Positions 33,838-37,615 of a DNA stretch of 64,000 nt are shown piece after piece. Where the stretch lies: NCBI RefSeq assembly GCF_009914755.1, contig NC_060935.1; one strand, written 5' to 3'. Source of the DNA: the human T2T-CHM13v2.0 reference genome, Homo sapiens. The notes under the pieces are model-generated. The model did not search any database and was not told the origin of the DNA. It saw nothing but the letters and a program-made list of their open reading frames with translations. Within the stretch, counting starts at the first letter, position 1. Every line of letters starts with the position of its first letter. Position numbers and translations under genes: made by a program.

Positions 33838-36309
33838 TGTTTCTTACTTCTCATTCAAAAATGTTTAAATGAATTTTTATTATACTTGCAGACCCTTACA
33901 GCTCCTGTGGAGCACAGTATGAAAACCTCTAGTCTGAAGCTTCTGAAGAATCTATAACAGGAATGAAGAGTTTGACCAGCTTGAATTTCAAACATCTCCC
34001 CATTGGCAAGACATGAAAACCAAGCTTTCACTTGATCAGACGAGCAAGACATCTAGTCTTTCTGGAGATGTTCTCTTATATCTTGTTGCTTTGGGCTGAG
34101 TGGAATACATACAGGAGCCTTGAGACCCAAAGACTCTCCCTGCTGCTCTGGAGGTTGTAACCTCTGAACTTACTGTTGCCACTGCTCAGGCCTCTCCCAT
34201 GAGAGAGTGGTTATTTGTTTTCCTTGGTTTCTCCTTACCCATTGTCTTTGTTACTGGTACAGATCTACTCCTTGGTCTTCTCCAGGCCTACCCACTCTTC
34301 AGAGCCCATTCCTACTTACTCAGAGCTCTAGAGAGGAGACAAAGCCCTTCCCTCTCCTCGACCTTGGTCCACCACATATGTGCAGGTGGTTAACAGTGGG
34401 AATCTTCCTTTCCTTCTAGTAAATCCTTTCCCCTCTACAGGGTATCATAGGGTCCCAAGGCCTCAAAAAAATAATCACAAAACAATTTGAGCATAGTAGA
34501 TTTCTCCAGATCTGGATTTTTCAATCATATTCATGATCATCTTGTCACCTTTATCAGGTTGGGTCTACTGGCTGGTTGGTTGGGGCATTAAAAATACAAA
34601 AAACCACTTTCATTGGTCTCTCATAGCCAGGAAATTCAAGCTGCTTATTAGCATAGCAAAAATTCTTTTAAAGCACTTGTAAGGAAGCAAAAATAACAAA
34701 ACAAAACAAGAAGTACTAGGAAGAAAGAACAAGAAAAGGAAGAAAAATGAAAGAGCAAAAAGGAACATTCAGAGAGTAGCAAATGCTGGAGACCCAAAAG
34801 CAGAGTGGGTGGTAGAGATCCGAGGTGGAGCTGGCTTTGACACAGATTCTGGGGTGGAAACAGCAGGAGGATAGAAGTGACCGGGCAAAGAAGAGAATCT
34901 GCTATGTGAAGAGCACCAACAGGATTCTATGACATGAAGGAAGCCCGTTAGATATCTCTGTTCCTTACAGAGAACCTGTGATCTAGAGGGACGGTCACTG
35001 AAAGGTCGTGCAACTTGTTAACTTCTGCAGCTCCAACGAGCACACGGCAGAATTCAAACCGGGGCCATGATTAAGGTACCCTAGGGGCTCCGGTCAGTTC
35101 AGCTGCCAAGGAAGTATTTGCTGCATGGTCTGTAATAATAACAATATTTGAGGGCAATTTGTCATAATGTTACTGGATCCTCACAGTTCTGAGGGTTGAT
35201 ATTTACAGCAGAGTTAGTATGACCCATTAAAAGAGGAAACAAAATGAAAAGGTATTTTCAAGGTCTTCTGACTCCACATCTCATATTTATTTTTCTCCAA
35301 CACAACAGACTTTGATTCAGTGATTAATTTAGTGGAAGCTCAGCTCTGAAATCATGCAACTGCATAGGTATCCTTTCTCTTTATTTGAAAGAGGCAAATA
35401 ATTTAAAAGTAAGTAGATATCAAGGAACTTTTGATATCTGGAGCAAGTTCCAGTGTCCTTTCCTATTTAGTCCTACATTTGTTTGTTTGTTTGTTTTCCC
35501 CCAGCATTCAGAGCTGTTTATTTCCATCTTCATACTACACCAAAGAATTTCAAACAGTGTTAGGTAGACTAGCTGGAAGTTGGAGCTTAGAACATCCTAC
35601 ATCCCTGAAAAGTTCAGTGATGCAGTCCCAGGTACACAGCTGCCCATCTGCCACCCAAGAATTGTTGTGAAGAAACCAGAGTCTCTGCAGATGATGGGAC
35701 AGAAGCCTGTGGTGCAGCAGTGGTCACCTAGCAGGTCCTTGGCTGGGACACCTTCTATTATAAAGTATATCAGTTTAAGCTTGACAGAATGAAACATGAT
35801 ATATTTTACAAGTAATGAATATAGGCCAATAGAAAACTCATAGATACAAATATAACTAATTCTACAACTTCCATAATGGCCCGTCCTAATTCTTTAATTT
35901 GTCATCTATTATAATTCATAGACTTTGTCACATAATTTTAGAGTGGGTCTTAAGATAAAATCATGTTTGTTAAATATGTGAGGTTGATGATAAGCTCACC
36001 AAGGAGTTCTTTACTCAGTATGGGAATTCAGAGAGCACAAAGTTACAGAGGGAGAAGCAGGATTATGAGGGACAGAAGTCATAGGGGTGATTCCCATTTT
36101 TATTGACTGACACACATATTCTTACTTTAGGAAAAACTGCATCTAATTTTAGACTGCAGTTCATGGCAGATGCTGCGAACCAGCAGCAAGTTCATGTCCA
36201 GAATTGCTCACTGCAGAGGATTTTGTCTGCTGGCTGGTACCATAGTTTCTCTTTCATAGGCTATTCCAAAACTTCTATAATGCTGGTAGATTTCAGTGAA
36301 GTGTCACCC

Positions 36310-37165
36310 CAGCCCACCCACCCCTTGCACTTAGCCAGCAGTGGCACCCACCTTGAGCATGGTGAGGTATGTTATGCCAGCAGGGTCCACATTGCTGCTG
36401 TTCACCTCCAAGTGCTAAGCTGCTGTACACCTTGCAGTGGGACTCCACTTCACTGCCCAGCACCACTGTCTGATTGGGCAGCAGCCATGCATGCGGAATT
36501 AGTCAGTGAGGAGAGCACTCTGTGGGGGCAGATGGGGACTGGAAGGCTGCCCGTCTGCCTGCCCCTCTCTGTAGCCCTCATCCAGCATGTCCAGTGTGTA
36601 TATCTGCAGGATGCTGCCAAACTTATTCTCCACCATACTCTCCATGACCAGGCTCCATTGCTGGTGCTGCAACTGGATACACTGATATGAGGCTCTCCAT
36701 GGAACTCCTTGTGGGTCCTCAGCCAGGAAATGGAGAGAGTAGAATTGCTGGTGGTGGGACATCAGAAGCAAACAGGTTGGGTGGCCAGCATGGCCAGCAG
36801 CTTCTTGTCCATCCACTGAGCCCAAGTCCAATAGAGGGCCTCTGGCACGTGAAGGCCATATAGAGGTGAGGAACAGAAGCCTATCTGATCTGACTCTCCT
36901 TCCAAGGCTCCCCCTGTCCACTTCCCACCTCAGTTTATCCTCCTGTGTAGGGAGAGTGTTGCCTTTCAAGTACATCTGCCTGGGGTGGAAAAGGCTCCAA
37001 GGAACCTCAACACCATGTTCCCGACACCCTTGGCATTCTCAAACATGGGCCATGTGTTCCCTTCCCTCTGAGCTTCCTCCAAGTGGCTTCTCCTGCTAAG
37101 AGGTCCAGGGTGCCCCACTGGGGGGGGCCTTCAGGACATACCAGCATCTCCCAGGGGAGCCCCCA
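36310..37165 (-). pseudogene. FGFR3 pseudogene fragment (exons 5-7, Ig-II/Ig-IIIa), partly spliced; possibly the annotated FGFR3P2
   Basis: 36841-36673 reads ALYWTWAQWMDKKLLAMLATQPVCF*CPTTSNSTLSISWLRTHKEFHGEPHI, versus FGFR3 [52 protein letters not shown]. 36672-36582 reads LQHQQWSLVMESMVENKFGSILQIYTLDML. 36519-36352 reads ECSPH*LIPHAWLLPNQTVVLGSEVESHCKVY..HLEVNSSNVDPAGITYLTMLK. Stops, frameshifts and CpG decay are present. Outer limits are approximate. Confidence 0.93.
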
Positions 37166-37615
37166 TACATTTGCTTTTATAGAAAGTAATAATGGCCCAT
37201 TTACTGAACACTTGCCATGTGCTAAGCCATGAGATCAGCATTTTGCATGCCTTATTTAAACTTGACATCCGTCATGTGATATACCTCCATTTTAGCAATG
37301 AGGAAACTGAAGCTCAGAGGGCTTGAGTAACTTACCCAGTGTTATACAGCCAGACAGTGGCCAAGTCTGAGTTTGAACCAGGATCTAACTTGAAGTATCA
37401 GTTCTTAGCTATCACACTTTGTGGCCTCTGTATGCAACACTATCCTAAGTCTCATGTTAGGTATTTGTCCTTGAGTTAAGGAAAAGTTAAATTCTTTTCT
37501 GCAACCACCACTTAAAAATGCCAGAAAGTGTTTTCTGAGTTTGGTTTTTTGTTTGTTTGTTTGTTTTGGCGGTTGTGGGGCGAGTTTTTCTTTTTTTCGT
37601 CAAAAACTGGTTTAA

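What the first reader, a model, noticed from the sequence alone, without database searches (positions are those of the whole stretch)
36310..37165. Half-spliced FGFR3 fragment: one intron gone, flanking introns kept
Seen in sequence: three FGFR3-like exon blocks of 169 nt (36841-36673), 91 nt (36672-36582) and 168 nt (36519-36352). Blocks 1 and 2 are fused directly (ATC CAG|TTG CAG CAC, equivalent to IK|LRH), where FGFR3 has intron 5. Blocks 2 and 3 are separated by a 62-nt intron remnant (36581-36520) starting ATGAGGGC (decayed GTGAGGGC) and ending CATCTGCCCCCACAG. Block 3 ends AAG|GTGGG, and block 1 is preceded by an AG and ~320 nt of GC-rich intron-like DNA. Recalled knowledge: FGFR3 exons 5/6/7 are 170/124/191 nt and intron 6 ends catctgcccccacag. 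No poly(A) tail or TSD is visible. Inference: this fits neither a standard retrocopy nor a plain duplication. It suggests reverse transcription of a splicing intermediate, or capture of an internal gene piece by a mobile element.
Basis: partly seen in the sequence, partly recalled or inferred. Interest (0 to 1): 0.8.

Follow-up and report, generated by a model that had tools for sequence, protein, structure and literature searches.

The report
Half-spliced retrocopy of an FGFR3 pseudogene
FGFR3P2 is an old, dead, reverse-transcribed copy of a partly spliced RNA that came not from FGFR3 itself but from an earlier duplicated FGFR3 pseudogene; it is a rare but already known kind of pseudogene.

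Summary
The copy runs on the minus strand from 37165 to about 35478. It ends 14 nt after an AATAAA in an A-rich tail and is bracketed by a short target-site duplication.

The template was not FGFR3 pre-mRNA. Every FGFR3-like copy in this genome shares a 23-nt deletion in exon 7 and about 800 nt of non-FGFR3 3' sequence. The copies on chr7, chr19, chr16 and chr1 are colinear with FGFR3 genomic DNA over several kb, so they are unprocessed duplicates.

The chr11 copy groups with chr19/chr7 (support 99/97) and shares their 33-nt exon 6 deletion, yet lacks intron 5 exactly. Copies on chr3 and chr20 also lack intron 5 but lie elsewhere in the tree. An AU test rejects one common loss (p 0.005).

Best reading: a 5'-truncated, L1-type, semi-processed retrocopy of a transcript of an unprocessed FGFR3 pseudogene. 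No carrier mobile element was found. It is a new member of a known kind, of modest interest.

The parts
37166..37177 (-). 5' copy of the candidate target-site duplication (AAAGCAAATGTA), preceded by TAT, so the target site reads TAT|AAAA.
   Evidence: It ends exactly where homology to the parent copies begins. Its terminal 8-mer is exact and 10 of 11 bases match at the 3' end.
36842..37165 (-). Retained 3' part of FGFR3 intron 4 (324 nt), ending in the acceptor AG. This is the 5'-truncated start of the retrocopy.
   Evidence: Window 36956-36842 aligns directly to chr4:1799721-1799845. The rest aligns to the chr16, chr19, chr7 and chr1 copies, which are colinear with FGFR3 intron 4.
36673..36841 (-). 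Exon 5-like block, 169 nt (FGFR3 exon 5 is 170 nt). It contains stop codons.
36672..36673 (-). Exon 5 / exon 6 junction with intron 5 absent, reading ATC CAG|TTG. The parent-like chr19 copy reads ATC AAG|gt...ag|TTG.
   Evidence: alignment. chr20 reads ATC AAG|CTG, the exact spliced join, and chr3 reads ATC ATG|CTG.
36582..36672 (-). Exon 6-like block, 91 nt. It is FGFR3 exon 6 (124 nt) minus an internal 33-nt deletion shared with the chr19 and chr7 copies.
36520..36581 (-). Retained intron 6, 62 nt (91 nt in FGFR3). The donor has decayed from GT to AT and the acceptor tract CATCTGCCCCCACAG is kept.
36352..36519 (-). Exon 7-like block, 168 nt. It is FGFR3 exon 7 (191 nt) minus a 23-nt deletion shared by all 7 pseudogene copies aligned.
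36327..36351 (-). Stub of intron 7 after an unused GTGGG donor. Detectable FGFR3 homology stops here.
   Evidence: In one search the nhmmer family profile matches FGFR3 only up to chr4:1800509 (envelope to 1800529). Exon 7 ends at chr4:1800504.
35503..36326 (-). Non-FGFR3 3' sequence that the FGFR3 pseudogene family shares. It serves as the 3' end of the template transcript.
   Evidence: Matched by chr16 copies (to 35753), chr19a (to 35763), chr7 (to 35503), chr3 (to about 35860) and chr1 (to 36062). No match in 27 kb of the FGFR3 locus.
35745..35746 (-). Empty site. The chr7, chr19c, chr19d and chr19e copies carry a roughly 590-nt high-copy LTR-like repeat here that chr11 lacks.
35517..35522 (-). 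AATAAA poly(A) signal, conserved in the chr7 and chr19c/d/e copies.
35478..35502 (-). Five unexplained G followed by the A-rich tail AAAACAAACAAACAAACAAA. Homology to the parent-type copies ends at 35503, 14 nt after AATAAA.
   Evidence: The 4 of 4 parent-type copies that reach this point continue with AACAATGGCTG... instead.
35474..35484 (-). 3' copy of the candidate target-site duplication (AAACAAATGTA). It overlaps the end of the tail.

Best explanation
FGFR3P2 spans window 37165 to about 35478 on the minus strand, roughly 1.69 kb. It is a 5'-truncated, LINE-1-type retrocopy of a partly spliced, polyadenylated transcript of an older unprocessed FGFR3 pseudogene.

**The founder.** It was a DNA-level duplicate of the 5' half of FGFR3, running from the CpG-island region to a few bases into intron 7, joined to about 0.8 kb or more of unrelated sequence. 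It acquired a 23-nt deletion in exon 7. Descendants survive as intron-containing copies on chr16, chr1, chr19 and chr7.

**The template.** It came from the common ancestor of the chr19 and chr7 copies, which had also lost 33 nt of exon 6. An RNA was made in which:
- intron 5 had been spliced out;
- the intron 4 remnant and the very short intron 6 (62 nt) had not;
- the exon 7 donor had no partner exon, so transcription read through to an AATAAA about 830 nt downstream.

**The insertion.** This RNA was reverse transcribed into chr11 at a TAT|AAAA site. That left an A-rich tail, a short target-site duplication and a start inside intron 4.

**Shown here:** the anatomy, the parentage, the exact intron loss, its recurrence in other copies, and the end at the poly(A) site.

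**Inferred:** L1 as the machinery, why introns 4 and 6 stayed, the promoter that drove the parent, and an age of roughly 50-100 million years.
For: 1. **Single origin.** In the 8-row alignment, 7 of 7 pseudogene copies share a 23-nt deletion in exon 7 relative to FGFR3.

2. **Unprocessed parents.** Several copies are colinear with FGFR3 genomic DNA, introns included:
   - chr7 with chr4:1792049-1800508;
   - chr19a with chr4:1792676-1800509;
   - chr16a with chr4:1797684-1800414;
   - a second chr16 copy with chr4:1796662-1800509;
   - chr1 with chr4:1799043-1800516.

3. **Intron 5 status.** It is present with GT...AG in 4 of 7 copies (chr19a, chr7, chr16a, chr1). It is absent at the exon/exon join in 3 of 7: chr20 AAG|CTG (exact), chr3 ATG|CTG, chr11 CAG|TTG. 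The FGFR3 junction was verified by residues 174/175 of 1ry7_B.

4. **Parentage.** The 33-nt exon 6 deletion occurs in chr11, chr19a and chr7 only. The tree of 12 rows gives (chr11,(chr19a,chr7)) support of 99/97. The AU test rejects a clade of the three intron-5-less copies, with p 0.005. Intron 5 was therefore removed at the same junction at least twice, which points to splicing rather than deletion.

5. **3' end.** AATAAA lies at 35522-35517. Homology to chr7 and chr19c/d/e stops at 35503. Those 4 of 4 copies continue with shared sequence, whereas chr11 turns into GGGGG plus an A-rich run.

6. **5' end.** All 5 unprocessed copies aligned, and FGFR3 itself, continue upstream in intron 4. chr11 switches to unrelated AT-rich DNA at 37166/37165.

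7. **TSD.** The 8-mer CAAATGTA abutting the 5' junction recurs right after the tail, and 10 of 11 bases match. With the position constraint this was reached by 344 (exact 8-mer) and 299 (10 of 11) of 200000 random pairs from the window.

8. **No carrier element.**

9. **The ~600-nt 'gap'.** The stretch chr11 lacks at 35745 relative to chr7 and chr19c/d/e is a high-copy repeat inserted in those copies. One search gave 4389 first-look candidates, of which 40 were scored at 81-86% identity.
Against: - The TSD is short and A-rich. Without the position constraint, a 10-of-12 match was reached by 70 of 3000 shuffles and 130 of 3000 random pairs. Against the real A-rich flank, 178 of 17140 A-rich 11-mers match 10 of 11.
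- The tail is only about 20 nt and interrupted. Five G between the cleavage point and the tail are unexplained.
- The codon at the chr11 junction reads CAG, not AAG. For chr11 alone, a 3-nt-shifted deletion of exactly intron length cannot be excluded.
- No promoter was shown for the parent. Detected chr7 homology starts at chr4:1792049, 365 nt upstream of the ATG but probably downstream of the start site.
- No other species could be searched, so the empty site and the age are untested.
- The group for the AU test was defined from the alignment, before the tree but not before the data were seen.
Confidence: 0.82

Rival explanations
1. DNA-level (segmental) duplicate of the chr19/chr7-type pseudogene, which then lost intron 5 through an ordinary genomic deletion.
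For: Most family members are DNA-level duplicates. The chr11 junction reads CAG rather than AAG, so a deletion shifted by 3 nt is formally possible.
Against: The deletion would have to match the intron in length and position. The same exact loss occurs in chr3 and chr20, on other branches. The copy ends 14 nt after an AATAAA in an A-rich run where the 4 of 4 copies that reach that point continue. A TSD abuts both ends.
Confidence: 0.06
2. Retrocopy (or DNA copy) of a lost family member that had already lost intron 5. On this reading the half-spliced state was inherited rather than made at this insertion.
For: Several retrocopies of the family exist (chr3, chr20), and old copies can be lost.
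Against: It needs an extra, unobserved locus that has the 33-nt deletion and lacks intron 5. The observed sisters, chr19a and chr7, both keep intron 5.
Confidence: 0.06
3. Direct retrocopy of partly spliced FGFR3 pre-mRNA.
For: Exon and intron homology to FGFR3 is real.
Against: chr11 carries the 23-nt exon 7 deletion, the 33-nt exon 6 deletion, the shortened intron 6 and about 0.8 kb of 3' sequence that FGFR3 lacks. All are shared with the duplicated pseudogenes. It nests inside the pseudogene clade.
Confidence: 0.03
4. Capture of an internal FGFR3 piece by a mobile element, such as retroviral or LTR transduction, or a Pack-type or Helitron-type DNA transposon.
For: The piece is dispersed over seven chromosomes. 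An LTR-like repeat lies inside the 3' region of some copies.
Against: That repeat is a later insertion absent from chr11. No direct or inverted repeats bracket the chr11 copy. The flanks found no relatives in the genome beyond a MIR-like stretch upstream and Alus further out. The large copies are colinear with up to about 8.5 kb of the FGFR3 locus, with internal gaps, which is not a transposon cargo pattern.
Confidence: 0.03

Closest known systems
Semi-processed (partially processed) retropseudogenes. Examples are mouse preproinsulin I and the TMF1 insertion in CYBB, as described in passages of PMC4151081. GENCODE reported eight partially processed pseudogenes in the human genome, per a passage of PMC3491395.
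   Same: A reverse-transcribed copy of a transcript that kept some introns. It ends at an alternative, intronic or read-through poly(A) signal, as the TMF1 case does. It has a tail and a TSD, lies on another chromosome, and is dead on arrival.
   Different: The template here was itself a pseudogene, an unprocessed partial duplicate, not the working gene. The copy is also 5'-truncated inside a retained intron.
Classical L1-mediated processed pseudogenes
   Same: A poly(A) signal followed by a tail, a short TSD at a TAT|AAAA-type site, 5' truncation, no promoter, and exact removal of an intron.
   Different: Only one of the three introns internal to the copy is removed. About half of its length is intronic or read-through sequence.
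Duplicated (unprocessed) pseudogenes: the FGFR3-like copies on chr16, chr19, chr7 and chr1
   Same: The same founder, the same 23-nt exon 7 deletion, and the same non-FGFR3 3' sequence.
   Different: Those copies keep intron 5, extend several kb upstream through FGFR3 introns, and run past the poly(A) site. chr11 does none of these.

Membership tests
L1-mediated retrocopy (processed pseudogene, broad sense) | Intron removed exactly at the exon/exon junction | tested here: met
   Intron 5 is absent at 36673/36672. The junction was checked against FGFR3 exons 5 and 6. One base of the junction codon differs (CAG instead of AAG).
L1-mediated retrocopy (processed pseudogene, broad sense) | The 3' end lies at a poly(A) signal and is followed by a poly(A) tail | tested here: met
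   AATAAA is at 35522-35517. Homology to the parent-type copies ends 14 nt later. An A-rich run lies at 35497-35478, degenerate and preceded by five unexplained G.
L1-mediated retrocopy (processed pseudogene, broad sense) | Target-site duplication abutting both ends | tested here: met
   An exact 8-mer, and 10 of 11 bases. Position-constrained chance was 299-344 of 200000 random pairs, and about 1% for A-rich words. It is short, so the support is moderate.
L1-mediated retrocopy (processed pseudogene, broad sense) | Insertion at an L1 endonuclease-type site (TT|AAAA-like) | tested here: inconclusive
   The site reads TAT|AAAAGC. The consensus is recalled, not taken from a tool, and no empty site from another species was available.
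Semi-processed pseudogene | At least one parental intron retained in a copy that otherwise has retrocopy hallmarks | tested here: met
   The last 324 nt of intron 4, the whole 62-nt intron 6 and a stub of intron 7 are retained, and each aligns to FGFR3 or the parent copies.
Fully processed pseudogene | All introns within the copied span removed | tested here: not met
   Introns 4 (part), 6 and 7 (stub) are present.
Duplicated (unprocessed) pseudogene | The complete exon-intron structure of the source is kept, with no tail or TSD | tested here: not met
   Intron 5 is missing, and the copy ends at a poly(A) site.
Gene fragment captured by a transposon or retrovirus | Terminal repeats (LTR or TIR) or other element sequence bracketing the fragment | tested here: not met
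   Only short chance repeats were found, and none brackets 37165/35478. The flanks found no relatives in the genome beyond a MIR-like stretch upstream and Alus further out. No repeat library (Dfam) was available, so element names could not be checked.

The most novel reading that the evidence does not exclude
The founder was not simply dead DNA. The partial FGFR3 duplicate (promoter region to exon 7 plus a new 3' end) would have stayed a transcribed, correctly spliced and polyadenylated germline locus for tens of millions of years. It seeded retrocopies on at least three separate occasions with different splice patterns:
- chr3: exons 3|4|5|6 joined;
- chr20: exons 5|6|7 joined;
- chr11: exons 5|6 joined.

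It may have acted for a time as a gene, for example for a secreted Ig-domain FGFR3 fragment or a regulatory RNA, before decaying. The long-lived transcription is fairly well implied. A past protein or RNA function is pure speculation here.
Probability: 0.08. Interest if true: 0.55.

Novelty: new member of a known kind. Interest (0 to 1): 0.3.

Why it matters
The locus is already named (FGFR3P2), but I found nothing in print on its origin. A search for FGFR3P1 to FGFR3P6 gave 49 papers. The 20 listed were, by title, mostly Fgfr3 P244R/P250R mouse-model studies or studies on unrelated topics. I saw the listing only, and none addresses origin. A phrase search for 'FGFR3 pseudogene' gave 0 papers.

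The case is a clean worked example of three things.
- A pseudogene can itself be transcribed, spliced and retrocopied, giving second-generation pseudogenes.
- Mixed intron content is best explained by which introns could still be spliced in the template.
- Automatic 'processed versus unprocessed' labels, and parent assignment to the working gene, can both be wrong for such loci.

It also warns that retrocopy hallmarks may lie far outside the gene-like part. It has no evident bearing on FGFR3 function or disease.

Tried and rejected
1. **Common 5' end as a transcription start.** Five copies seemed to begin at 37159-37165. This was an artefact of using chr11 as the query: the other copies continue upstream.

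2. **A second spliced intron of about 600 nt at 35745.** Rejected. The boundaries lack GT-AG, and the piece is a high-copy LTR-like repeat inserted in the chr7 and chr19c/d/e copies.

3. **An ERV or LTR element as carrier of the FGFR3 piece.** Rejected for the same reason, and because of the colinearity with FGFR3 genomic DNA.

4. **The 3' 0.8 kb as diverged FGFR3 intron 7.** A family profile searched with nhmmer against 27 kb of the FGFR3 locus found nothing significant beyond exon 7 plus 5-25 nt. The other hits had E of 0.04 or more.

5. **chr3 and chr20 as independent witnesses of the same poly(A) site.** chr3 is cut off near window-equivalent 35860 by L1-like sequence (my own recognition, not a tool result). 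chr20 shares nothing after exon 7. Neither is informative.

6. **Following chr16 past its L1 insertion.** No continuation was found in the 5 kb fetched.

7. **Calls that gave nothing useful.**
   - The bacterial promoter/terminator scan is irrelevant to a human locus.

8. **Rows left out of the tree.** The tree used 12 rows. I left out the partial or rearranged chr16 copies (L036, L037, L040) and the 3'-only chr19b-e copies, because they lack most of the aligned span.

Full report
**Observation**

- An exon 5-like block lies at 36841-36673 (169 nt), preceded by an acceptor AG.
- An exon 6-like block lies at 36672-36582 (91 nt) and is joined to it directly (ATC CAG|TTG).
- A 62-nt spacer lies at 36581-36520, starting ATGAGGGC and ending CATCTGCCCCCACAG.
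- An exon 7-like block lies at 36519-36352 (168 nt), followed by GTGGG.
- All frames carry stop codons.

The window's own genome could be searched, so I fetched the real FGFR3 locus (L021 = chr4:1795001-1805000). There exons 5, 6 and 7 are 170, 124 and 191 nt, and introns 5 and 6 are 83 and 91 nt, with AG/GT bounds. The exon translations match the solved FGFR3 chain 1ry7_B at residues 119-174, 175-215 and 217-279. The exon 5/6 junction used below is therefore verified, not recalled.

BLAST of the window against FGFR3 gives E 2e-29, 2e-15 and 2e-30 for three pieces. These include 125 nt of intron 4 and the 3' end of intron 6.

**A family, not a single fragment**

The genome search found 35 matching pieces:
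- 1 is the window itself;
- 3 lie on the parent gene, chr4:1799721-1800509;
- the other 31 lie on chr19 (2), chr7 (4), chr16 (21, pericentromeric), chr3 (1), chr1 (2) and chr20 (1).

An 8-row alignment shows three indel characters.
1. A 23-nt deletion in exon 7 is present in 7 of 7 pseudogene copies and absent from FGFR3. All copies therefore descend from one founder.
2. A 33-nt deletion inside exon 6 is present only in chr11, chr19a and chr7. It explains 91 nt instead of 124 nt.
3. Intron 5 is present with GT...AG in chr19a, chr7, chr16a and chr1. It is absent in chr11, chr3 and chr20. The junctions read AAG|CTG in chr20 (the exact spliced join), ATG|CTG in chr3 and CAG|TTG in chr11.

**Most copies are unprocessed duplicates**

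Compared with 27 kb of the FGFR3 locus, several copies are colinear with FGFR3 genomic DNA, introns included:
- chr7 with chr4:1792049-1800508;
- chr19a with chr4:1792676-1800509;
- chr16a with chr4:1797684-1800414;
- a second chr16 copy with chr4:1796662-1800509;
- chr1 with chr4:1799043-1800516.

The FGFR3 ATG is at chr4:1792414, inside a CpG island spanning about 1791000-1794000. These are therefore DNA-level copies of the 5' half of the gene.

All copies stop being FGFR3-like just after exon 7. A profile of the family's 3' region matches FGFR3 only to chr4:1800509 (envelope to 1800529) and nothing beyond. What follows in the family is at least 0.8 kb of unrelated, AT-richer sequence, found only in family members.

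By contrast, chr3 has exons 3|4|5|6 joined exactly with intron 6 retained. chr20 has exons 5, 6 and 7 joined, with about 32 nt of exon 7 also missing. Both carry the 23-nt deletion. They are therefore retrocopies of the pseudogene, not of FGFR3.

**The chr11 copy's ends**

*5' end.* The 5 unprocessed copies aligned, and FGFR3, continue upstream through intron 4. chr11 switches to unrelated AT-rich DNA between 37166 and 37165. Further upstream lies a stretch at about 37361-37281 with many short dispersed matches. I recognise it as MIR-like; that is recall, not a tool result.

*3' end.* chr11 aligns with chr7 and with three 3'-only copies on chr19 down to 35503. That point is 14 nt after an AATAAA at 35522-35517. 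All 4 of those copies then continue with shared sequence (AACAATGGCTG...). chr11 instead reads GGGGG followed by AAAACAAACAAACAAACAAA.

*Target-site duplication.* The 12 bases before the 5' junction (AAAGCAAATGTA, 37177-37166) recur after the tail (AAACAAATGTA, 35484-35474). The 8-mer is exact, and 10 of 11 bases match.
- With the requirement that the word abut the junction, 344 (exact 8-mer) and 299 (10 of 11) of 200000 random pairs from the window do as well.
- For A-rich words against the real flank, the figure is 178 of 17140.
- Without the position constraint, 10 of 12 is unremarkable: 70 of 3000 shuffles and 130 of 3000 random pairs reach it.
- The target reads TAT|AAAA, close to the L1 endonuclease preference as I recall it.

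*The apparent 600-nt deletion.* chr11 appears to lack about 600 nt at 35745 relative to chr7 and chr19c/d/e. That stretch is a high-copy LTR-like repeat inserted in those copies. One search gave 4389 first-look candidates, of which 40 were scored at 81-86% identity. chr11 therefore preserves the empty site.

*No carrier.* No LTR- or TIR-like repeats bracket the chr11 copy. Its flanks found no relatives in the genome beyond that MIR-like stretch upstream and Alus further out.

**Parentage and recurrence**

A maximum-likelihood tree was built from 12 rows. Gaps count as missing data, so the indels do not drive it.
- It places chr11 as sister to (chr19a, chr7) with support 99/97. This agrees with the shared 33-nt deletion.
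- chr3 and chr20 branch deep and elsewhere.
- Forcing the three intron-5-less copies into one clade costs 15 log-likelihood units (AU p 0.005).

Intron 5 was therefore removed at the same junction at least twice. Splicing of transcripts is the economical explanation.

The chr11 end branch is 0.12 changes per site. With a recalled mammalian neutral rate of about 1-2.2e-9 per site per year, this suggests very roughly 50-100 million years. CpG-rich starting sequence makes this uncertain.

**Mechanism**

1. A partial FGFR3 duplicate was transcribed. *(Inferred; required by the three retrocopies.)*
2. In the chr19/chr7 ancestor, the stretch corresponding roughly to chr4:1795.3-1799.0 kb is missing, and exons 3 and 4 lie within it. 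The 'intron 4' piece had therefore lost its upstream donor and was less likely to be removed. *(Inferred.)*
3. Intron 5 was spliced normally. *(Shown by the junction.)*
4. Intron 6 is only about 62 nt in this lineage and is also retained in chr3. *(That its shortness hindered splicing is inferred.)*
5. The exon 7 donor had no downstream exon, so the RNA ran to the next AATAAA and was polyadenylated there. *(Shown by where chr11 ends.)*
6. Reverse transcription at a TAT|AAAA site, with 5' truncation inside the intron 4 remnant, produced FGFR3P2. *(Hallmarks shown; L1 as the agent inferred.)*

**Comparison with the known**

Semi-processed pseudogenes are an established, uncommon class.
- Passages of PMC4151081 describe mouse preproinsulin I. 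They also describe a TMF1 insertion that kept introns and ended at an intronic poly(A) signal.
- A passage of PMC3491395 says GENCODE found eight partially processed pseudogenes in human. Their Table S3 could not be opened, so I cannot say whether FGFR3P2 is listed.

What is less usual here is that the template was itself a duplicated pseudogene, and that one founder produced both DNA-level and RNA-level offspring with different splice patterns.

I found nothing in print on the origin of the FGFR3P loci. A search for FGFR3P1 to FGFR3P6 gave 49 papers. The 20 listed were, by title, mostly Fgfr3 P244R/P250R mouse-model studies or studies on unrelated topics. I saw the listing only. A phrase search for 'FGFR3 pseudogene' gave 0 papers.

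**Verdict**

It is wrong about the template and about the missing tail and TSD. The mobile-element capture idea is not supported.

This is a new, well-resolved member of a known kind, of modest interest.

Open points:
- the five G before the tail;
- the promoter of the parent;
- confirmation of the empty site in other species.

Noticed in passing
L023 1212-1795 (chr7) and the same site in L031, L032, L034 (chr19); empty site at window 35745/35746: A roughly 590-nt high-copy repeat with TG...CA ends and an internal AATAAA, which looks like a solo LTR. It gave 4389 first-look candidates genome-wide, and the 40 scored were 81-86% identical. It sits in the 3' region of the chr7 and chr19c/d/e copies but not in chr11. 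The family name is unknown because no repeat library was at hand.
   Followed up: partly
L038 5400-8400 (chr4:1790400-1793400) versus the genome: The FGFR3 upstream and CpG-island region has many partial, colinear copies in subtelomeric and pericentromeric places: chr18p (four tandem units), the chr10p end, chr12:33.98 Mb, chr1:226.73 Mb, chrY, chr7, chr8, chr22, chr14, chr2 and chr21. This suggests a wider, old FGFR3 5'-half duplicon.
   Followed up: no
L031-L034 (chr19:21.64, 23.18, 23.66, 24.22 Mb): Four copies in chr19p12, which I recall as a zinc-finger gene cluster, hold only the family's 3' non-FGFR3 part (window-equivalent 35956-35503 and beyond). They share a different upstream context with chr7. 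They are probably co-amplified with the cluster.
   Followed up: partly
L026 5584-5898 (chr1:246.55 Mb copy): The last 37 nt of the exon 7-like block (matching chr4:1800474-1800510) occur four times in tandem-like spacing within about 300 nt.
   Followed up: no
window 37420-37280 (minus strand): A MIR-like element lies just upstream of the insertion. The stretch at about 37361-37281 has many short dispersed matches in the genome. It is older target DNA, unrelated to the FGFR3 piece.
   Followed up: partly
window 35502-35498 (minus strand): Five G lie between the last templated base and the A-rich tail. They are absent from all four parent-type copies that reach this point, and remain unexplained. 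They could be untemplated addition or later mutation.
   Followed up: no
L027 5056-5472 (chr20:6.2616 Mb): The chr20 copy has exons 5, 6 and 7 joined but also lacks about 32 nt at the start of exon 7. An exact join plus a deletion cannot be told apart from use of the cryptic CCTGCAG acceptor. It has a (CA)n run upstream and no shared sequence after exon 7.
   Followed up: partly
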